From: a phage
Sequence record: PV357172.2
DNA length: 64,000 nucleotides
Strand: one strand, 5' to 3'
In this document: piece by piece, positions 21,963 to 54,613 of the stretch
How the letters are laid out: each line of letters begins with the position of its first letter
Position numbering within the stretch: position 1 is the stretch's first letter
The notes under the pieces: generated by a model
Told to the model about the DNA's origin: nothing
The model's input: the letters and a program-made list of their open reading frames with translations, nothing else
Database searches by the model: none
Made by a program: the position numbers and the translations under genes

Positions 21963-22715
21963 ATGGGAAAAGCACGTCAAAAAAGAGAGAACCGCAATGG
22001 TTCAAGAAAGCGTGGCAACAAATATGAGAATAACGTAATTCAGGCTGATTTTTCTAATGATTACGCTAACCCAGTTGCTAAATCCCTAGTAGGTAAAAAC
22101 CGCGAGCAAAAATCATATATCAATATGATCAAGAACAACACAGTGACTGTGGGTATCGGTGAGCCAGGTACTGGTAAAACCTTTATTCCGTCCGTTCTTG
22201 CAGCTCAGGAACTCGTAGACATTCACTCAGATATTGAGCAAGTGATTCTCGTACGTCCTAATGAACCTCTAGGTAAGTCTCTTGGTATGCTTCCTGGTGA
22301 TCTGGCGGAAAAGCTAGAGCCTTGGTTAGAGCCAATAGCTGATGGTATGAAATGGGCCATCGGCGATCATGCCTATAAGGGATATGTCGAACGTCAGAAA
22401 ATTAAATTTTTGGCTGTCGAACATGCTCGTGGCAGAACTTTCAACAACTCCTATGTAATTGTCGATGAAGCTCAGAATATTTCCGTTGAGGCAATGATTT
22501 GTCTCCTAACTCGTGTAGGGCAAGACTGCCGTTTAATTATCTGCGGAGATATAGCTCAGAAAGACATTAAAGGTGACTCAGGTCTAGCACTCCTTATGGA
22601 AGTCTATGAGAAATATGAAAATGCCCCATTCTCAATGATCGAATTGATTGATAACGTTCGTTCTGTTGAGTCTAAAGCATTCTATGATATTTTTAAAGAT
22701 ATGGGAAAGGTGTAA
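21963..22715 (+). CDS. phoH: PhoH-like ATPase
   Basis: Walker A GEPGTGKTF; ATG at 21963 after GGAGTG. Confidence 0.7.
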   Translation: MGKARQKRENRNGSRKRGNKYENNVIQADFSNDYANPVAKSLVGKNREQKSYINMIKNNTVTVGIGEPGTGKTFIPSVLAAQELVDIHSDIEQVILVRPNEPLGKSLGMLPGDLAEKLEPWLEPIADGMKWAIGDHAYKGYVERQKIKFLAVEHARGRTFNNSYVIVDEAQNISVEAMICLLTRVGQDCRLIICGDIAQKDIKGDSGLALLMEVYEKYENAPFSMIELIDNVRSVESKAFYDIFKDMGKV

Positions 22716-33252: not shown

Positions 33253-34074
33253 ATGGGTAAATTACAAAAACAAATACTACCACATATAGATTATATTCGA
33301 GAAATTATAGAGTATAATCCTTATACTGGTAAATTATTTTATAAGCCTAATAAATACAAGAATAAAACTTGGCACACCCTATATGCTGGGAGAGAAATAT
33401 GTAGTAAGAACTCTGATGGGTATATCAGAGTTAGTTTGCTCTTAGATAATAAACCCACAATTATTTATGGACACCGAATAGCGTGGTTGCTCCATTATGG
33501 TGAAGAGCCTCCTTATATGATCGACCATATAAATACCATACCGTGGGATAACAGAATTGTTAATCTAAGAGAGACAAATTTTAAGTTAAATAGGATTAAT
33601 ACTAATAAAACCGTAGGTGTAGAACTCCTCCCCGAGGGTTTTGTGTATAGCATTACATTAGGTGGAAAGTTTTTCGTATCTCCTGGCTTCACCACTTTCG
33701 AACAAGCTAAAGGGGAAAGAGAAAAACTAGTAAATGGTTTATGTAATGCAGAAATTGGGAAGCAGACCAATATTCTAATAGACGATGTTAGAGATCTACC
33801 TGAAATGTCCATTATTTGTCGTACAGTTATAGGTGCGCTGGAACTATCAGATATGTTTAGTTTTACTGGTTCCTACCTATTTATGGACTCAGATCTAGGA
33901 GACCCAGAAGTACAAGGAAAAGACTTATTAGATTATATACTCTTTTTAGGTCAAAGACCTTTGAAAGTAGTTCTAGTAACATCCAACCCTGTTGACGCAG
34001 AGTACATGAGAGGTACTCTTACGTCTTATGGTTATCGAGAAAATCCCAATAGGTTAGAATATGACCTATTTTAA
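33253..34074 (+). CDS. HNH endonuclease with C-terminal extension
   Basis: HNH motif YGHRIAWLLHYGEEPPYMIDHINTIPWDNRIVNL in N-terminal half. Confidence 0.65.
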   Translation: MGKLQKQILPHIDYIREIIEYNPYTGKLFYKPNKYKNKTWHTLYAGREICSKNSDGYIRVSLLLDNKPTIIYGHRIAWLLHYGEEPPYMIDHINTIPWDNRIVNLRETNFKLNRINTNKTVGVELLPEGFVYSITLGGKFFVSPGFTTFEQAKGEREKLVNGLCNAEIGKQTNILIDDVRDLPEMSIICRTVIGALELSDMFSFTGSYLFMDSDLGDPEVQGKDLLDYILFLGQRPLKVVLVTSNPVDAEYMRGTLTSYGYRENPNRLEYDLF

Positions 34075-36161: not shown

Positions 36162-37109
36162 ATGTTTAATACTAAAAATATGAAAGAACTGACTTCTGAG
36201 CAGAAAGTAATTCGTACTATTAAACGTTGGGGTATTGGTGCTGTAGTTGGTTTAGCAGGTTTAATCCTAGCTTTTAATTCATATACTGTTGTTCAAGACG
36301 GTACTGTTAAAACCCAGACTTTCCTGGGTAAAGTTGACCCTAGCCCAGTATTACCCGGCTTTCATATTGTAAATCCTTTTGCTTCTTTCGATACTTTTAG
36401 TACTAAAGATATTGCCCTAAAATTAGATAAACTTCAGGTTCCTAGCCAGGATAAGTTTAAATCCACTGTTGACCTGACTGTTATGTTGCAGTTTGATGGT
36501 TCTAAGGCACCAATTAACCGTATTAACGCAGGTACTCAGGATCAGGCGTTAGACAAGTATGTAACTGAAAAATTACTGTCTACTATTCGTGAGTTTGGTA
36601 AGTCTGTACCTAAAGCACAAGATTTGTTTGATGCTAAAATTCAGGCTCAATTGCAAACTGCAATTCAACAGGAAGTTGAAGAGTATGCACGCCCATATGG
36701 TTACACAGTTAAGCAGGTATTCCTTCAGGATATTACTTTGCCACCGGTAATCATGGAACAGGTACAGAATACCAAAGTTCGTGAAGAGCAAGTTAATGCT
36801 GCGAAAGCTGAACTGGCCCGCGTTGAACAAGAAGCGCAGCAAAAGGTTAAACAAGCAGAAGCAGACCGTGAAGCTCGCAACAACCAAGCTATTGCTAATG
36901 AACGTGACGCAGATGCTAAACTGTACGCAGCTAAGAAAGAAGCTGAAGCTAACGCCGCATTGCAACGTACCATTACTCCTGAGATGATTCGCTGGAAGCA
37001 ACTGGAAGTTGAAATGCTTCGTGCTGAAAAATACCAAGGTGGTGTACCGCAAACAGTAGTGGGAACTGGTTACGATGGCCAGATGATCATGGATATGCGT
37101 AATAAGTAA
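36162..37109 (+). CDS. SPFH/band-7 (prohibitin/HflK-like) membrane protein
   Basis: N-terminal TM segment, SPFH-like core, Ala/Glu/Gln-rich coiled-coil tail. Confidence 0.55.
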   Translation: MFNTKNMKELTSEQKVIRTIKRWGIGAVVGLAGLILAFNSYTVVQDGTVKTQTFLGKVDPSPVLPGFHIVNPFASFDTFSTKDIALKLDKLQVPSQDKFKSTVDLTVMLQFDGSKAPINRINAGTQDQALDKYVTEKLLSTIREFGKSVPKAQDLFDAKIQAQLQTAIQQEVEEYARPYGYTVKQVFLQDITLPPVIMEQVQNTKVREEQVNAAKAELARVEQEAQQKVKQAEADREARNNQAIANERDADAKLYAAKKEAEANAALQRTITPEMIRWKQLEVEMLRAEKYQGGVPQTVVGTGYDGQMIMDMRNK

Positions 37110-37299: not shown

Positions 37300-37350
37300 A
37301 GTTAAAAAATTCGATTGCTTGAATGCTAAATTCTCTGTATAATATATTTA
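37300..37350 (+). promoter_or_regulatory. sigma70-like strong early promoter
   Basis: TTGCTT at 37315-37320, 17-nt spacer, TGTATAAT ending at 37343. Confidence 0.6.
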
Positions 37351-37373
37351 TAAATTTGAGAGAGGAATCAAAT

Positions 37374-38429
37374 ATGATTAAGACTGGTCTAGTAATTGGT
37401 AAGTTCGCACCATTAACGCGTGGTCATATTAACCTAATAAACACAGCAGCAACTATGTGTGAACGAGTTATTGTTGTAGTTAGTCATGATAATCGTTGGC
37501 TGGATAAGCAGAACACACGTGATCAGGAAGTATTACAGTTAAAGAATCGACTTCGTTGGTTAGAACAAACTTACGCGGATATTGAGCACATTTCGGTAGA
37601 GTACATTATTGAAGATGATATTCCTGAATATCCGAATGGTTGGCCGGAATATGCTAGAATCCTTAATGAAAATTACGGACATTTGCCTGAGATCACCGTT
37701 TTCTCTAGCGAACTAGACTATGATGCAGAATATAAGAAATATCTGCCGAAGTTTGGTCATTATATTGTAGATTCTGATCGGACTCGTGTTCCAATCTCAG
37801 CTACAATGATTCGTAATGATCTTATGAAGTATTGGGAGTTTCTTCCTAGCTTAGTTCGTAAAGATTACGTGCGTAAGGTTGTAATCATTGGGACTGAAAG
37901 CTCGGGAAAGACTACTTTAACAAAATACCTTGCGAAGCTATACAACACTTCGTGGGTAGAAGAATATGGCCGAACGTATTGTGAAGTTGATCTAGTTGGT
38001 AACGAAAATCTACTTACCAGTGAAGATTACAGTAAAATTGCGTTCAGACACAAAGAGCTAGAGTTTGAAGCAGAACGTACTGCAAATAAGATCATGTTTG
38101 TGGATACAAATGCTTTTATTACTGAGTTCTACCACAGACTTTATGAACATAGTAAGAACCCTGTGGTTACAGCAATTGCAAAAGTAGAACATTACGATTT
38201 AGTAATTGTTCTAGCGCCTACTGTCAAGTGGGTAGATGATGATTTACGTATTAACTCCGATCGTTCAATTACTTCTGAACTGTTCGAGCAGATGAAGAAA
38301 GAATTTCCAAATCAGTTCCCTGAAGGGCGTACTGTTTACATCGACTCTCCGGACTACAAAGTTCGTATGGACGAAGCAGTAAACGCAGTAGACTGGCTGA
38401 TTCATCACTTTAACGTTGGAGAGTTTTAA
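37374..38429 (+). CDS. NadR-like bifunctional NMN adenylyltransferase / ribosylnicotinamide kinase
   Basis: N-terminal nucleotidyltransferase motif GKFAPLTRGHINLI; C-terminal P-loop IIGTESSGKTTL. Confidence 0.65.
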   Translation: MIKTGLVIGKFAPLTRGHINLINTAATMCERVIVVVSHDNRWLDKQNTRDQEVLQLKNRLRWLEQTYADIEHISVEYIIEDDIPEYPNGWPEYARILNENYGHLPEITVFSSELDYDAEYKKYLPKFGHYIVDSDRTRVPISATMIRNDLMKYWEFLPSLVRKDYVRKVVIIGTESSGKTTLTKYLAKLYNTSWVEEYGRTYCEVDLVGNENLLTSEDYSKIAFRHKELEFEAERTANKIMFVDTNAFITEFYHRLYEHSKNPVVTAIAKVEHYDLVIVLAPTVKWVDDDLRINSDRSITSELFEQMKKEFPNQFPEGRTVYIDSPDYKVRMDEAVNAVDWLIHHFNVGEF

Positions 38430-38430
38430 T

Positions 38431-39108
38431 ATGACTAACTATCTCGTAAATGACTTTAAAAACTGGAAACCTCTGGAATATCTGTGGCTGCTCATAGCGG
38501 TTGTCTTCATTAGTTTAGCAAACTATAATGGTACAGCTCTAGATTGGGCTACTGCAATAACCAATGTGGTTTGTGTTATTCTGGTTGCAAAAGGACGTGT
38601 TTCCAACTATATTTGGGGCTTAGTGGGTGTTCTTACATATGGTATTACAGCTTTAAACGCAGATCTTTATGGTAACGCTGCACTAAACCTGCTATACTAC
38701 GTTCCTATGCAGTTTTATGGAATGTACTTATGGCATAAAAATAAACCAAGTAATCTGCCAGACGTTCCAACTAAGGTTCTGACTAAAGCTCAGGCTTTAT
38801 TAACTCTTGGGATTCTAGCAGTAGCTACTCTAGGCTATGGCAGCTTCCTCGCTACCACAGCAGATCCGTTCCCAATGCTCGATGCATTTACTGCGGTTGG
38901 TAGTGTAATTGCTATGTGGCTTATGGTCAAGCAGTATGCTGAACAATGGCTAATCTGGATTGCCATTAATATTGGTACTGTATACATTTGGTTTGTAACT
39001 GCTCAGTCTACAGGTGCTTCTTATGCAATCCTAGCAATGTGGCTGGTATTCTTTGGTAACTCTGTACTTGGAGCCTATAAAGGGTACTTTGTACGCGTTA
39101 ACAAATAA
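38431..39108 (+). CDS. PnuC-like nicotinamide riboside transporter
   Basis: Multi-TM protein immediately downstream of NadR-like gene; ATG at 38431 after GGAGAG. Confidence 0.55.
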   Translation: MTNYLVNDFKNWKPLEYLWLLIAVVFISLANYNGTALDWATAITNVVCVILVAKGRVSNYIWGLVGVLTYGITALNADLYGNAALNLLYYVPMQFYGMYLWHKNKPSNLPDVPTKVLTKAQALLTLGILAVATLGYGSFLATTADPFPMLDAFTAVGSVIAMWLMVKQYAEQWLIWIAINIGTVYIWFVTAQSTGASYAILAMWLVFFGNSVLGAYKGYFVRVNK

Positions 39109-50639: not shown

Positions 50640-51338
50640 ATGAGGATTATTTCTAAGTTCGCCGATGTGTATGATTTGCAGAACAGTTTGTTCGACCCAG
50701 ATCGTGTGTGGGAACGTAAAACTGAGGAGTTGCTGGTTAAAGTAACCGATGATGCAGAAAAGAATATTGTGCATACTCGCCAGGTATTTCGTGATGGTTC
50801 GCTATCTTTCCGTGGTGATTTCGAATACTTCGTAAACCCCCTATTTGTTGCAGGTGAAGTTTACTGGTTACATGAGCTGTACTGCTGGCATCCAGCATTT
50901 AGCTTCAAAACGTTCGACCTCGACACTATGTTCGATAAAATGGAAGAGATGGGATTGCATGCTCGCTCTTACTTAATGGATAAGAGTCGTGGAGATGTTC
51001 GTGAAACAATGCGTGATCTGCTCGCTGAAGCAAAACCTAAAGCAGAACGTATCTTATCCGAACTGCGTGTACCGATTGCATATGTGAAAGGTATTAAAAA
51101 GAACGATAACGATGATGTTCGTAACTTCGTAATTCAGACTAACATTCGTTTCCATCAGTCCGGTATTCCGTGGCAGGAAATTGAAAGTAACTTATACCGT
51201 TTACACCAAGTTCTCGAACAGTATATCTTCGGTGTACTAGGAACTGGTGAGCCTGATATGATTAAAGTATCAGATAAAGACAGGTTAGCAGCGCATGGAT
51301 TTGATACAAAAACTTCTTTCAGGAATATGGCACGGTAA
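50640..51338 (+). CDS. hypothetical protein (232 aa)
   Basis: Promoter module and GAGGATTAAAT leader upstream. Confidence 0.5.
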   Translation: MRIISKFADVYDLQNSLFDPDRVWERKTEELLVKVTDDAEKNIVHTRQVFRDGSLSFRGDFEYFVNPLFVAGEVYWLHELYCWHPAFSFKTFDLDTMFDKMEEMGLHARSYLMDKSRGDVRETMRDLLAEAKPKAERILSELRVPIAYVKGIKKNDNDDVRNFVIQTNIRFHQSGIPWQEIESNLYRLHQVLEQYIFGVLGTGEPDMIKVSDKDRLAAHGFDTKTSFRNMAR

Positions 51339-51744
51339 GTGGTATATCCTGGGAGCAGGTCTAGCGATAGGCATCGGGTTCGGTGCTTATCACTTAGTAG
51401 ATAAAGTGGAGACTTTAGCAGGAGATCTTGCGGTAGCTACTAAAAAGATTTCTTCTCTAGAGACTTCCCTCAATAAGGTGAAAGCTGAAAGCGAACTTCG
51501 TGAGACTAGAATGAATCAGTATTTCACAATGAATAATATTTTGCAAGCAGATCTAGACAAAAAGATTAAGCAGTTAGACAAAGCTCTTAGTCGCCAAGAT
51601 ATTATAGCTGCAAAGCCTGGATTGGTAACATTAATTGCTAAAAAGCAGAGTAAAGAGTTCGAGGAAAGATTAGCGTGTTTAACTGGAAACTTGGAATACT
51701 GCTCGCAGCCGCAATCACAATCACAGGCTGTGCAGAAGAAATAA
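51295..51744 (+). CDS. putative i-spanin (inner-membrane spanin component)
   Basis: N-terminal TM WYILGAGLAIGIGFGAYHLV followed by coiled coil; overlaps downstream lipoprotein gene; start uncertain. Confidence 0.45.
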   Translation: MDLIQKLLSGIWHGKWYILGAGLAIGIGFGAYHLVDKVETLAGDLAVATKKISSLETSLNKVKAESELRETRMNQYFTMNNILQADLDKKIKQLDKALSRQDIIAAKPGLVTLIAKKQSKEFEERLACLTGNLEYCSQPQSQSQAVQKK

Positions 51745-52028
51745 AACCAGAGCCATCTCATGAGTTAAAGCAAGCTCATGTAGACTGGCCTAAAGGACTT
51801 CAGCCTTGTAGCTTTGATTTCAAATTCGAAAAGAAATTAGCTACAAATGGCGAAGATGGCGTAGTAGTTGTTGTACCATATAAAGATTGGAATGCAAAAG
51901 CAAAATGTGAGGAAGCAGTTTACTCTTACATTTCACGACTGACTGGTATGGTCTGCTTCTATCGTCAAGATTTACAAGAAAAACGTTGCTTAGTTTACTA
52001 TCCACCCATTACAAATAGGAAAGATTAA
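51675..52028 (+). CDS. putative o-spanin (outer-membrane lipoprotein)
   Basis: Signal peptide with lipobox ITGC (LLAAAITITGCAEE); overlaps 3' end of preceding gene in another frame. Confidence 0.5.
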   Translation: MFNWKLGILLAAAITITGCAEEIKPEPSHELKQAHVDWPKGLQPCSFDFKFEKKLATNGEDGVVVVVPYKDWNAKAKCEEAVYSYISRLTGMVCFYRQDLQEKRCLVYYPPITNRKD

Positions 52029-52699
52029 TGTCAGTATTAGTCGGTTTACATGGTGAAGCTGGTTCGGGAAAAGATACCGTTGCAAAATTAATTATCGATT
52101 GGTGTAATGACACGTATCCAACGTGTTTACCCCGTCGTTACAGTTTTGCTAAGCCCGTTTATGAACTTGCATCCGTAATCCTCGGTGTAACTCCAGAGTT
52201 TCTAGGAGAGCGCAGGGGAAAAGAGATTGATCAATGGTTTACGGTCACACAATCTCAATTGGAGCGAGCCAGAGATGTGTGGTTTAAGTACGGTATCGAT
52301 AAGTTTGAAGACTTCTCGTACGTTTGGCCTATTTTTGAGGAAAAATATCTTAATCCCCAACAACTTATCTCAGAGAGTAAAGAAGACGGACTTTATAGTT
52401 TATTTATTTCTCCGAGAAAAATGTTACAGCTCGTAGGAACAGAGCTAGGAAGGCAGCTGGTGCATGAACGCATTTGGCTCATAATTCTGGAGCAATCCAT
52501 CGCTAAAGACGACCCAGACGTCGCCGTAATAACAGATGTTAGATTCCCCAATGAAGGAAAGCTACTCAGAGAAACAAACCATTTAGATATGGATTCTTTG
52601 ATAGTAAATGTAGTACCGCTGAGCAGAAGTTTACTATTAAATCAGATCATCCATCTGAAAGTGGTATTCCTGCAAATATATTACTCACGAATTAGTTAA
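52028..52699 (+). CDS. deoxynucleoside monophosphate kinase-like P-loop kinase
   Basis: N-terminal P-loop GLHGEAGSGKDTVAKL. Confidence 0.55.
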   Translation: MSVLVGLHGEAGSGKDTVAKLIIDWCNDTYPTCLPRRYSFAKPVYELASVILGVTPEFLGERRGKEIDQWFTVTQSQLERARDVWFKYGIDKFEDFSYVWPIFEEKYLNPQQLISESKEDGLYSLFISPRKMLQLVGTELGRQLVHERIWLIILEQSIAKDDPDVAVITDVRFPNEGKLLRETNHLDMDSLIVNVVPLSRSLLLNQIIHLKVVFLQIYYSRIS

Positions 52700-52790
52700 T
52701 AAATTCGATGGTATCAATAACCTTAAACTAGAAGTTTATAACTTCTGTGACTTAGAGCTAGAACCACTAGTTGGATAATCAAGGATCGCT

Positions 52791-53390
52791 ATGACTAATA
52801 AAAAAGAAGAAAAGACTAACCTGTTTCACTCCATTCGCCAATCTAACGAGTATACCTTTTTCTTTGATGAAGAGTTAGGCCCGCCGGATGAATACCGTGA
52901 TTTATCAATGGTACTTATGCAGGCACATGAGGACGACGAAATTAATCTGATGATTAATGGCCCGGGTGGTTATGTTGATACTGCTGCACAGTTATCTAAC
53001 TTAATTGCTAATTGCCGTGGAACAGTTATAGGACACCTGATTGGTCCTAGTGCTTCTGCTTACTGCACAATTTTCCTATCCTGTCATGGATGGGTAGTAC
53101 ATCCACATGCTACGCTAATGGGACACACGTTCTCTGGCGGATTCTGTGAGAAGGGTCAAGAAATCAAGAAAGCCTATGAATCTTACAACAAGTTCGTAGA
53201 AGATATGATGCTAGATGTCTACTATCCGTTCTTCTCAATAGACGAAATCGACGAGATGGTAAAAGACAACAAAAATATCTATCTAGATAGCAAAGAAATC
53301 CATAAGCGTATTGAAATCTTGGCAAAATATCGATCTGAGCAATATAATAAAGCCCAGTTACCTCAATCAGAGGAGCATAACGAAGAGTAA
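52791..53390 (+). CDS. ClpP-like (S14 family) serine peptidase
   Basis: ClpP-like core INGPGGYVDTA...IGPSASAYCTIF...HPHATLMGH. Confidence 0.45.
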   Translation: MTNKKEEKTNLFHSIRQSNEYTFFFDEELGPPDEYRDLSMVLMQAHEDDEINLMINGPGGYVDTAAQLSNLIANCRGTVIGHLIGPSASAYCTIFLSCHGWVVHPHATLMGHTFSGGFCEKGQEIKKAYESYNKFVEDMMLDVYYPFFSIDEIDEMVKDNKNIYLDSKEIHKRIEILAKYRSEQYNKAQLPQSEEHNEE

Positions 53391-53401
53391 GTAATTTTAA
53401 G

Positions 53402-53436
53402 CCAGGGTTTAACGACCCTGGCTTTTCTTTTATCTA
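53402..53436 (+). terminator. rho-independent terminator
   Basis: Hairpin GCCAGGGTT-TAACGA-CCCTGGC followed by TTTTCTTTT. Confidence 0.6.
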
Positions 53437-53546
53437 AAATTCTTCTTGACAACGACAAAATTTTATGCTCCAGAAGTGATCTTTAAAAACACATTGTAAT
53501 TTTCCTCCAAAATTAGTATAATGGTACTGGTTAGAGGAGGTTACAA

Positions 53547-54203
53547 TTGGAAAAGTTCTTACAATTATTAACGGTACTGCTCCAAGAAGCGAAAGATCCA
53601 GCATCGCTTCTTAAACGTCTGCTAACTATCTTAGTTGCTGTCATTATTTTCTTATTTGTTAGTAATACTAGCGAGGTGATGTCATTCTTAAAGACTTTCT
53701 CCACGTCTGCGGTTCTACAGGATGTTCAAACTCAAAGGATAGATAACTTTCCTAATGTAGCTAGAGAAAAGAGCATGGTACTTTTTTCTCAAACGGGTGC
53801 GGATGCTGTTTTTGTCGTCAAGTATAAACCAGATGCTATTAATGATTATTCTAACATTATTGCATGGGAAAGCAATGCGCAATTAGATAGGGCTGACTTG
53901 GCCGATAAAGCGGTAAATAAAACGTCTGAGCTATATAGACGTCACTTGGAGGGCTTTAACTACGCATCGGATTTAAGTGTAAAAGTAAATAAATACATGG
54001 GGTTAAATATACCTGCGTTTAAGAACGTTACTTTTAATTACATATACACTTGTCCGTATTTCAATCTAAACAATATCTATGCTGGATATATTGGTATTGC
54101 TTGGAAAGATAACCCTGTAGATGCAGCCGATTCTGAGAAATTTAAGGAATATTTAACAAAGCTCTGTTCACCACAACAGAGATCTTTAGGTAGATCAATA
54201 TGA
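53547..54203 (+). CDS. putative T-type holin (single N-terminal TM, large periplasmic domain)
   Basis: 218 aa, one TM (LLTILVAVIIFLFV); TTG start after GAGGAGGT; immediately precedes endolysin with ATGA overlap. Confidence 0.5.
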   Translation: MEKFLQLLTVLLQEAKDPASLLKRLLTILVAVIIFLFVSNTSEVMSFLKTFSTSAVLQDVQTQRIDNFPNVAREKSMVLFSQTGADAVFVVKYKPDAINDYSNIIAWESNAQLDRADLADKAVNKTSELYRRHLEGFNYASDLSVKVNKYMGLNIPAFKNVTFNYIYTCPYFNLNNIYAGYIGIAWKDNPVDAADSEKFKEYLTKLCSPQQRSLGRSI

Positions 54204-54613
54204 GTTTTAAATTTGGTAAAAATAGCGAAAAACAATTAGCTACCGTTAAGCCAGAGCTACAAAAAGTAGCTCGTAGAGCTTTAGAATTATCTCCATATGA
54301 TTTCACGATCGTACAAGGTATTCGTACAGTAGCACAAAGTGCCCAGAATATTGCTAATGGTACTTCATTTTTAAAAGATCCTAGTAAAAGTAAGCATATT
54401 ACTGGGGATGCCCTTGATTTTGCTCCATACATTAATGGCAAAATTGATTGGAATGACTTAGAAGCATTTTGGGCAGTTAAAAAGGCTTTTGAACAGGCCG
54501 GTAAAGAACTAGGCGTTAAACTTCGTTTTGGTGCTGATTGGAATGCTTCGGGAGATTATCACGATGAAATAAAACGTGGTACCTATGATGGCGGTCATGT
54601 CGAACTAGTTTAA
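54200..54613 (+). CDS. endolysin, zinc L-alanyl-D-glutamate peptidase (M15 family)
   Basis: 137 aa; metal-binding motifs SKHITGDALDF and DGGHVE. Confidence 0.7.
   Translation: MSFKFGKNSEKQLATVKPELQKVARRALELSPYDFTIVQGIRTVAQSAQNIANGTSFLKDPSKSKHITGDALDFAPYINGKIDWNDLEAFWAVKKAFEQAGKELGVKLRFGADWNASGDYHDEIKRGTYDGGHVELV

What the first reader, a model, noticed from the sequence alone, without database searches (positions are those of the whole stretch)
52791..53390. ClpP-like peptidase gene among early metabolic genes
A ClpP-fold serine peptidase lies outside any visible head-morphogenesis context, so it is unlikely to be the prohead protease. It could degrade host proteins or act with the SPFH protein or host Clp ATPases.
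Basis: partly seen in the sequence, partly recalled or inferred. Interest (0 to 1): 0.4.

Follow-up and report, generated by a model that had tools for sequence, protein, structure and literature searches.

The report
Non-structural ClpP-like peptidase of T5 phages
This is a real, strongly conserved ClpP-fold serine peptidase gene of T5-like phages (the ortholog of T5 gene T5.042), already annotated in hundreds of genomes but never characterised; it is not the capsid protease, and it lacks the features needed to dock onto host ClpX/ClpA or to pair with the phage SPFH protein.

Summary

Ser89 and His112 align with ClpP Ser97 and His122 and are invariant in 145 homologs. The third triad position is Asn162 in the T5 clade only (Asp/Glu in 138 of the 140 homologs outside that clade). 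The ClpP N-terminal gating loop is absent, and only 1 of 16 ClpX/ClpA-docking residues is identical. The SPFH gene lies 16 kb away and is not co-distributed with this family.

Best reading: a chaperone-independent cytoplasmic peptidase made early in infection, substrate unknown. The "ATP-dependent" label is unsupported.

Side lead: outside T5-likes, family members are very often directly preceded by a PhoH ATPase gene.

Already known gene; modest interest.

The parts
52791..53390 (+). CDS of the ClpP-like serine peptidase (199 aa; ortholog of T5.042 / BF23 ORF45; PHROG 1827)
52781..52785 (+). Shine-Dalgarno sequence AAGGA, 5 nt upstream of the ATG
   Evidence: Sequence read directly; annotated as RBS at the same place in phage Lindwurm
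53055..53057 (+). Codon TCT = Ser89, predicted nucleophile (aligns with E. coli ClpP Ser97)
   Evidence: MAFFT with E. coli ClpP; invariant in 145/145 family members; coordinates
53124..53126 (+). Codon CAC = His112, predicted general base (aligns with ClpP His122)
   Evidence: invariant in 145/145; coordinates
53274..53276 (+). Codon AAT = Asn162 at the position of the ClpP triad Asp171; Asn only in the T5-proper clade
   Evidence: the 145-sequence alignment has Asp 121, Glu 17, Asn 5 (all T5 clade), Thr 2; Sugarland has GAT (Asp)
53148..53150 (+). Codon GAG = Glu120, a second T5-clade-specific change at a position that is Gly in 135 of the 140 homologs outside that clade (start of the handle)
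   Evidence: coordinates
53399..53434 (+). Intrinsic terminator (11-bp stem, 6 GC pairs, T-run) that ends the operon directly after the peptidase gene
   Evidence: annotated terminator at the equivalent place in T5, Lindwurm, Stitch, Sugarland and PR1
52028..52778 (+). Upstream co-transcribed dNMP kinase gene (dnk). In this window it is frameshifted by two 1-nt homopolymer deletions, so the called ORF stops at 52699
   Evidence: Pfam DNMK; alignment to T5 and Lindwurm; synteny
51295..52028 (+). Overlapping i-spanin (51295-51744) and o-spanin (51675-52028, with lipobox ...TITGC) genes at the head of the same gene string
   Evidence: ORFs; annotated as Rz-like spanins in T5, Stitch, Sugarland and PR1; Pfam Phage_T4_Spanin in L102
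53547..54613 (+). Downstream neighbours under their own promoter: T-type holin (53547-54203) and L-Ala-D-Glu peptidase endolysin (54200-54613). These are context, not shown to be functionally linked
   Evidence: Pfam Phage_holin_T E=8e-114 and Peptidase_M15_4; promoter-like site at 53494-53522; T5 annotation

Best explanation
The gene encodes a soluble, non-structural, ClpP-fold serine peptidase. It is made early in T5-type infection as the last gene of the spanin-dnk operon. Shown: the fold; invariant Ser89 and His112 at the ClpP nucleophile and base positions; an invariant PGG oxyanion-loop motif; a ClpP-like handle helix; strong purifying selection; core-gene status; separation from the head module. 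Inferred: it assembles into a ClpP-like ring or barrel. Because it lacks the N-terminal gating loops and the hydrophobic IGF-loop groove of true ClpP, it probably works without an AAA+ unfoldase, as an open-pore compartmental peptidase. Its likely substrates are peptides or unfolded or otherwise accessible proteins in the cytoplasm. The most plausible role is turnover of host or early phage proteins, a protein-catabolism counterpart of the nucleotide-salvage genes it travels with. In the T5-proper clade the triad acid is Asn162 and Gly120 is replaced by Glu. Catalysis there is therefore probably attenuated or dependent on assembly state, as in Listeria ClpP1. The substrate and the biological role are not known.
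For: Fold and family. Catalytic mapping: S89/H112/N162 align with ClpP S97/H122/D171. S89, H112, G59, G60 and E152 are invariant in 145 diverse homologs, and position 162 is acidic in 138/145. Functional constraint: dN/dS 0.03-0.08 within the Asn-bearing clade, and it is one of only 8 core genes (>80% identity) across 185 Tequintavirus genomes (PMC12639943). Not morphogenetic: the T5.150 S78 protease sits in the head module. Family members (>=130 bits on the family HMM) lie among DNA-metabolism genes, whereas the 67-92-bit relatives lie in terminase-portal-protease-capsid modules. Early operon with terminator. No unfoldase docking features: no structured N-terminal hairpin or helix A in the model, and 1/16 groove residues identical, with family-wide polar replacements. 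Removing the N-terminal loops lets isolated ClpP degrade unfolded proteins (bioRxiv 10.1101/2023.03.01.530711). NCBIfam ClpP models score 16-21 bits against cut-offs of 228-347.
Against: There are no biochemical data for any member of this family; a 2023 paper states that the function is unknown (PMC10644984). The oligomeric state could not be modelled. The Asn162 triad is the configuration that makes Listeria ClpP1 inactive on its own (PMC9257651), so the T5 protein may need a partner or may have very low activity. The recurrent PhoH ATPase neighbour in other lineages hints that the ancestral enzyme may not be ATPase-independent after all. Low-level detection in BF23 virion preparations does not fit a purely cytoplasmic role, although those were PEG-precipitated virions that also contained DHFR.
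Confidence: 0.5

Rival explanations
1. It is an alternative proteolytic core for host ClpX or ClpA (the 'ATP-dependent protease' of the database annotations and one of the first reader's ideas). On this view it redirects host unfoldases to phage-chosen substrates.
For: ClpP fold with Ser-His in place; the annotation is used in most GenBank records.
Against: The annotation rests on similarity only (T5 note 'identified by sequence similarity'). The N-terminal axial loops that contact the ATPase pore-2 loops are absent. The IGF/IGL docking groove is not conserved: 1/16 identical, with Y60N, Y62M, F82N, I90H, L114H and V44R, and these positions are mostly polar family-wide. The family occurs in phages of very different hosts without matching change in these positions.
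Confidence: 0.08
2. It stacks as a heptameric ring on a host ClpP ring, in the way Listeria ClpP1 stacks on ClpP2. This would activate its own Asn-containing triad and alter or hijack host ClpXP/ClpAP specificity.
Against: Most of the family has Asp/Glu and presumably needs no template. The inter-ring sensor is only partly conserved: K161 stands for Arg170 and there is no counterpart of Glu169. Nothing here tests hetero-oligomerisation.
Confidence: 0.1
3. It is the peptidase partner of a phage PhoH-like ATPase, forming a two-component module. In T5-likes the two genes have been separated but still act together.
For: PhoH lies directly upstream on the same strand, with a 12-54 nt gap or an 8-35 nt overlap, in 9 loci with differing flanks (L005, L010, L052, L095-L100), and in Alteromonas phage V22 (CDS-146/147). 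It lies within 3 kb in three more lineages. PhoH and the Clp-like gene are both among the 8 Tequintavirus core genes.
Against: In this window PhoH (about 21963-22712) is 30 kb away, and KVP40-type, Pakpunavirus and pf16 loci lack the adjacency. PhoH is a RecA/SF1-like P-loop ATPase linked to RNA metabolism (established knowledge), not an AAA+ unfoldase. Adjacency can reflect co-regulation only. Several of the adjacent cases come from related phage lineages.
Confidence: 0.1
4. It is a virion-associated or morphogenetic protease (scaffold or ejected protein processing).
For: BF23 ORF45 was detected by MS in virion preparations (3 peptides), at an intensity similar to low-copy tail proteins (PMC10644984). 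The nearest sequence relatives are ClpP-like head maturation proteases (phrog_1684 E=1e-20; NF045542 E=4e-10).
Against: The virions were only PEG-precipitated, and the non-structural DHFR was also found. The gene is in an early operon 81 kb from the head module, which has its own S78 protease. NF045542 scores 39.9 bits against a cut-off of 120. In no lineage examined is a true family member next to portal or capsid genes.
Confidence: 0.06
5. It is an NfeD/STOPP-like protease that processes the phage SPFH (stomatin-like) protein.
For: Weak NfeD1b_N similarity (E=0.002). An SPFH protein is encoded in the same genome, and V22 also encodes both.
Confidence: 0.03
6. It modulates lysis, for example by turning over the holin, endolysin or a lysis regulator.
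For: Across Demerecviridae down to 36-39% identity the gene sits between the spanins/dnk and the holin-endolysin pair. In Vibrio phage 70E35-3 its stop overlaps the endolysin start. An endolysin lies within 3 kb in PBES02 and IBT_VpB-34.
Against: A terminator and a separate promoter divide it from the holin. Outside these groups there are no lysis genes nearby. Synteny within one virus family is weak evidence of function.
Confidence: 0.05

Closest known systems
T5.042 'ATP-dependent protease' of phage T5 / ORF45 'Clp protease' of BF23 (PHROG 1827)
   Same: Ortholog: 99% amino-acid identity, same length (199 aa), same position between dnk and the terminator/holin/endolysin. Core gene of 185 Tequintavirus genomes.
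   Different: Nothing of substance; this is the same gene. No function has been determined for it ('currently unknown', PMC10644984).
Bacterial ClpP (MEROPS S14), e.g. E. coli ClpP
   Different: Only 16-23% identity. No N-terminal gating loop or helix A. The docking groove for IGF/IGL loops is not conserved. Asn replaces the triad Asp in this clade. It scores far below the NCBIfam ClpP cut-offs. It is phage-encoded with no cognate AAA+ gene.
Listeria monocytogenes ClpP1
   Different: LmClpP1 keeps the ClpP N-terminal region and works as one ring of a ClpP1/ClpP2 heterocomplex. No such partner is known for the phage protein, and most of the phage family has Asp/Glu rather than Asn.
ClpP-related phage head maturation proteases (NCBIfam NF045542; PHROGs 94, 1684)
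   Same: Nearest relatives by profile search (phrog_1684 E=1.4e-20; NF045542 E=3.8e-10). They cross-hit phrog_1827 at E about 1e-24, and they too work without an ATPase.
   Different: They are encoded between portal and major capsid genes (L076, L060) and score only 67-92 bits on the family HMM against >=130 for true members. This gene is early, lies far from the head module, and its genome type has a separate S78 prohead protease.
NfeD/STOPP 1510-N protease (PDB 2deo) and SppA (S49)
   Different: Lower structural similarity than ClpP. They use a Ser-Lys dyad (established knowledge), whereas this family keeps the ClpP His invariant. They are membrane proteins; NfeD is operon-linked to its SPFH substrate, which is not the case here.

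Membership tests
PHROG 1827 (phage 'ATP-dependent protease', non-structural ClpP-like) | Full-length match to the family profile | tested here: met
   E=5.4e-90, 301 bits, residues 1-198 on profile 5-201/202
ClpP, MEROPS S14 | ClpP alpha/beta fold with handle helix | tested here: met
ClpP, MEROPS S14 | Catalytic Ser and His at the conserved positions, with the oxyanion-loop Gly | tested here: met
   S89/H112/G60 align with S97/H122/G68 and are invariant in 145 homologs
ClpP, MEROPS S14 | Asp as third triad residue (Asp171) | tested here: not met
   Asn162 (AAT) in the window, T5 and Stitch; Asp/Glu in 138/145 of the wider family
ClpP, MEROPS S14 | N-terminal axial gating loop (mature residues 1-19) | tested here: not met
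   Only 19 unstructured residues precede strand 1, with no alignable hairpin or helix A
ClpP, MEROPS S14 | Hydrophobic groove that binds the IGF/IGL loops of ClpX/ClpA | tested here: not met
   1 of 16 groove residues identical, with Y60N, Y62M, F82N, I90H, L114H and V44R (residue list; mapping)
ClpP, MEROPS S14 | Curated HMM thresholds | tested here: inconclusive
   The broad Pfam CLP_protease model is passed (32.5 vs 20.2 bits). NCBIfam ClpP equivalog and subfamily models are failed by a wide margin (16-21 bits vs 228-347)
ClpP, MEROPS S14 | Double-heptamer barrel and functional coupling to an AAA+ unfoldase | not testable with these tools
   Only a monomer model could be made; there is no biochemistry
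ClpP-related head maturation protease (NF045542; PHROG 94/1684) | Score above the family cut-off | tested here: not met
   39.9 bits vs cut-off 120; phrog_94 E=1.8e-11 against phrog_1827 E=5e-90
ClpP-related head maturation protease (NF045542; PHROG 94/1684) | Gene located in the head module (portal - protease - major capsid) | tested here: not met
   The gene is in an early operon with dnk. The T5 head module has its own S78 protease, T5.150. The contrast cases L076 and L060 are in head modules
NfeD/STOPP (SPFH-specific protease) | NfeD profile match plus membrane and OB-fold C-terminal part | tested here: not met
   NfeD1b_N 18.2 bits vs cut-off 40; the 199-aa model is a single ClpP-like domain
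NfeD/STOPP (SPFH-specific protease) | Operon linkage or co-occurrence with an SPFH gene | tested here: not met
   SPFH is at 36162-37109, 16 kb upstream. The distributions differ outside T5-likes
SppA / S49 | Closest fold match and Ser-Lys dyad | tested here: not met

The most novel reading that the evidence does not exclude
The family is the peptidase half of an unrecognised phage two-gene module, PhoH-like ATPase plus ClpP-like peptidase. The pair is translationally coupled in many lineages. It would be an ATP-driven degradation or remodelling machine built on a non-AAA+ ATPase, possibly aimed at host ribonucleoprotein or translation machinery. On this reading, T5-like phages have separated the two genes and remodelled the active site (Gly120->Glu, Asp162->Asn). 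This would give phage PhoH, a widely used marker gene of unknown function, its first functional partner.
Probability: 0.1. Interest if true: 0.65.

Novelty: already known. Interest (0 to 1): 0.3.

Why it matters
This is one of the few genes shared at high identity by all Tequintavirus genomes. It belongs to a large family (531 cluster representatives at E<=1e-30) found in many big virulent phages, yet nobody knows what it does. [quoted passage not shown] Correcting the expectation (no gating loop, no docking groove, an Asn triad in the T5 clade) tells experimenters which assays to run. The PhoH linkage gives a concrete, testable lead on two uncharacterised phage gene families at once. For the scan itself, the finding is a correct call of a gene that is already annotated.

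Tried and rejected
(1) SPFH partnership: I located the SPFH gene and compared phage-wide distributions. I rejected the idea for lack of linkage, co-distribution and NfeD features.

(2) Holin fusion: the 320-aa homolog in Vibrio phage 70E35-3 overlaps the endolysin start, so I checked its extra 118 residues. They form an acidic low-complexity tail with no membrane segment. Rejected.

(3) Defence or anti-defence relation: PADLOC gave no hits.

(4) Literature: searches for 'T5.042/T5p042/gp042', 'phage-encoded ClpP / phage ClpP / viral ClpP', and 'pb11 + prohead protease' found nothing on function. Two searches failed because a term was too short. PMC4738002 (Huet 2016) is not held.

(5) The search for related loci with the 145-sequence alignment failed because it has no conserved stretch. 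The 13-sequence alignment returned mostly T5-likes plus head-protease relatives. I therefore sampled distant members through the search for homologous proteins and the look-up of encoding contigs instead.

(6) Oligomer modelling, and measuring Ser-His-Asn/Glu120 distances, were not possible because only monomer summaries are returned.

(7) K121 as a Ser-Lys dyad base: it is conserved in only 125/145 homologs whereas His112 is invariant, so I kept the ClpP-type mechanism.

Full report
OBSERVATION. The window carries an ATG-initiated ORF of 199 codons at exactly 52791-53390 on the + strand. An AAGGA ribosome-binding site precedes it at 52781-52785. A strong intrinsic terminator follows nine bases after the stop, at 53399-53424 (11-bp stem plus T-run). 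The protein passes the Pfam gathering threshold for CLP_protease (32.5 vs 20.2 bits, E=1e-7) and has only a sub-threshold match to NfeD1b_N (18 vs 40 bits). It matches PHROG 1827 ('ATP-dependent protease') end to end at E=5.4e-90, with much weaker matches to head-maturation-protease PHROGs.

WHAT THE WINDOW IS. The surrounding 2.7 kb is 98-99.4% identical to many T5-like phages (Tequintavirus, Demerecviridae), and the protein is 100% identical to that of Salmonella phage SCF. Mapping onto annotated relatives shows that the window is the T5 early region. It holds replication genes on the minus strand, then PhoH, ribonucleotide reductases, DHFR, thymidylate synthase, the tRNA block, dNMP kinase, this gene, holin-endolysin, and phosphatases. 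There are no head genes in the window. In T5 itself the gene is T5.042, 'ATP-dependent protease, identified by sequence similarity'; it differs from the window protein at 2 of 199 residues.

LOCAL ANATOMY. The order i-spanin / o-spanin / dNMP kinase / ClpP-like gene / terminator / promoter / T-type holin / L-Ala-D-Glu endolysin is conserved widely. It is found in T5, Epseptimavirus (Stitch), Sugarlandvirus (53% identity), Priunavirus PR1 (36%) and an uncultured relative at 39%. The gene is therefore the last cistron of an early operon that includes dnk, and it is transcriptionally separated from the lysis pair.

NOT THE PROHEAD PROTEASE. T5 encodes a dedicated head maturation protease, T5.150. 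It lies between the portal/decoration genes and the major capsid gene, about 81 kb from T5.042, and it is a Peptidase_S78 (HK97-type) enzyme with an unrelated fold. [quoted passage not shown] A family HMM built from 145 homologs separates fetched loci into two groups. True members score at least 130 bits and are always flanked by DNA or nucleotide-metabolism genes. Relatives scoring 67-92 bits, where I examined them (L076, L060), sit in terminase-portal-protease-capsid modules and belong to phrog_94. The family is therefore a non-structural sister group of the ClpP-like head maturation proteases. By profile search these are its nearest relatives (phrog_1684 E=1e-20; NF045542 E=4e-10 but 40 bits against a cut-off of 120).

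DOES IT DOCK TO ClpX/ClpA? In true ClpP the N-terminal loops (residues 1-19) gate the pore and touch the ATPase. A hydrophobic groove of 16 named residues binds the IGF/IGL loops, and deleting the N-terminal loops lets ClpP degrade unfolded proteins on its own (bioRxiv 10.1101/2023.03.01.530711). In the model, the 19 residues before strand 1 are coil, with no hairpin or helix A. Of the 16 groove residues only Phe30/Phe24 is identical. Tyr60, Tyr62, Phe82, Ile90, Leu114 and Val44 become Asn, Met, Asn, His, His and Arg, and these columns are mostly polar across the family. NCBIfam ClpP models score 16-21 bits against cut-offs of 228-347. The label 'ATP-dependent' is therefore unsupported. Canonical cooperation with host Clp ATPases is unlikely, though it is not excluded experimentally.

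SPFH IDEA. The SPFH/Band_7 protein is real (36162-37109; E=2e-17) but lies 16 kb upstream in another transcription unit. The peptidase has none of the NfeD hallmarks. The peptidase family is found in 1312 phage records, including 184 Pseudomonas and 115 Rheinheimera phages. Neither group appears among the ten organism names listed for the 740 SPFH-positive records. Those records instead include many T4-like Klebsiella and Aeromonas phages. Outside T5-likes the two genes do not travel together.

WIDER FAMILY AND A SIDE LEAD. The family is large, with 531 50%-identity cluster representatives at E<=1e-30 and 2484 at E<=1e-10. It forms a discrete structural cluster among viral models. Three neighbourhood types emerged. 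The first is the Demerecviridae arrangement described above. The second is T4-like phages, where it lies among recombination and replication genes (KVP40 frd-clpP-uvsX; L101). The third, seen in many other lineages, is a PhoH-like ATPase gene directly upstream on the same strand. That arrangement is separated by 12-54 nt or overlaps by 8-35 nt in Barba8A, KIL4, L052 and L095-L100 and in Alteromonas phage V22 (PMC7289586). PhoH lies within 3 kb in PBES02, IBT_VpB-34 and L050/51. The flanking genes differ (Dam, Thy1, RNR, antirepressor), so it is the pair itself that is kept. In this window PhoH is 30 kb away. This is a lead, not a conclusion. Several of these loci come from related phages, and PhoH is not an AAA+ unfoldase.

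MECHANISM. Shown: a ClpP-fold protein with the nucleophile, base and oxyanion elements conserved; strong purifying selection; placement in an early operon; no role in the head module; no unfoldase-docking features. Inferred: ring or barrel assembly, and unfoldase-independent degradation of peptides or accessible and unfolded proteins in the infected cytoplasm. In the T5 clade, activity may be attenuated or dependent on assembly or a partner because of Asn162/Glu120. I put about 0.5 on this composite reading. The rivals each get 0.1 or less: host ClpP hetero-stacking, a PhoH partner, host ClpX/ClpA, a virion or morphogenetic role, lysis control, and an SPFH partner. The BF23 virion signal (3 peptides, in PEG-precipitated particles that also contained DHFR) is most simply carry-over of an abundant or large oligomeric early protein, but it should be checked.

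NOVELTY AND VERDICT. The gene is already annotated in T5 and in hundreds of relatives, and a published paper flags it as of unknown function. This analysis adds five things: a clean delimitation of the non-structural family from head proteases; the clade-specific Ser-His-Asn triad with Gly120Glu; the absence of gating and docking features; the lack of any SPFH link; and the recurrent PhoH adjacency. Interest is modest (0.3).

Noticed in passing
L005 3198-4720; L010 2211-3555; L052 9313-10507; L095 4288-5675; L096 1745-3156; L097 4334-5705; L098 4229-5750; L099 3204-4726; L100 3136-4668 (window PhoH about 21963-22712): Outside T5-like phages, the ClpP-like gene is very often directly preceded by a PhoH-like ATPase gene on the same strand (12-54 nt gap or 8-35 nt overlap), with differing flanking genes. 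The same holds for CDS-146/147 of Alteromonas phage V22. In the window the two genes are 30 kb apart. This may be a conserved functional pair.
   Followed up: partly
window about 52616 and about 52674 (dnk, 52028-52778): Two single-base deletions in homopolymer runs (CCC->CC, AAAA->AAA) relative to T5 and Lindwurm frameshift the 3' end of the dNMP kinase gene, so the ORF stops at 52699 (223 aa instead of 250). This is most likely a sequencing or assembly error and suggests homopolymer errors elsewhere in the window.
   Followed up: yes
window 53148-53150 (Glu120) and 53274-53276 (Asn162): The T5-proper clade differs from the rest of the family at only three conserved positions (G120E, L148F/Y, D162N). 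P0013 carries E120 with D162, which looks like an intermediate. The carboxylate may have been relocated or the ring interface remodelled. The geometry could not be measured.
   Followed up: partly
window 36162-37109: An SPFH/Band_7 (stomatin-like) protein, annotated 'lipoprotein' in relatives, is conserved in T5-likes and has 60-80% identical homologs in T4-like Klebsiella, Enterobacter and Aeromonas phages (RB43, KP27). This suggests horizontal exchange between unrelated phage families. Its function is unknown.
   Followed up: partly
window 51295-52028 vs 53547-54613: The lysis genes are split. The i-spanin/o-spanin pair heads the early dnk-peptidase operon, while the holin and endolysin form a separate unit downstream. 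This arrangement is conserved across Demerecviridae.
   Followed up: partly
L008 2899-4249 (Vibrio phage 70E35-3): The T5-like Vibrio phage homolog is 320 aa, with a 118-residue acidic low-complexity C-terminal tail. Its stop overlaps the endolysin start, and no T-type holin lies between them.
   Followed up: partly
window 37323-39108: A NadR-like protein (cytidylyltransferase-like plus AAA_28 domains; 37323-38429) overlaps a PnuC-type nicotinamide mononucleotide transporter gene (38416-39108). Together they look like an NAD-salvage pair in the early region, near two Sir2-like genes annotated in relatives.
   Followed up: no
window 33253-34074: This ORF combines an HNH_3 endonuclease domain with a cREC_REC (cyclic-phosphate processing receiver) domain, an unusual pairing for a homing-endonuclease-like gene.
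   Followed up: no
BF23 ORF45 (literature, PMC10644984): The ortholog was detected by MS in PEG-precipitated BF23 virions together with DHFR. The result is either contamination by early proteins or genuine low-copy packaging.
   Followed up: no
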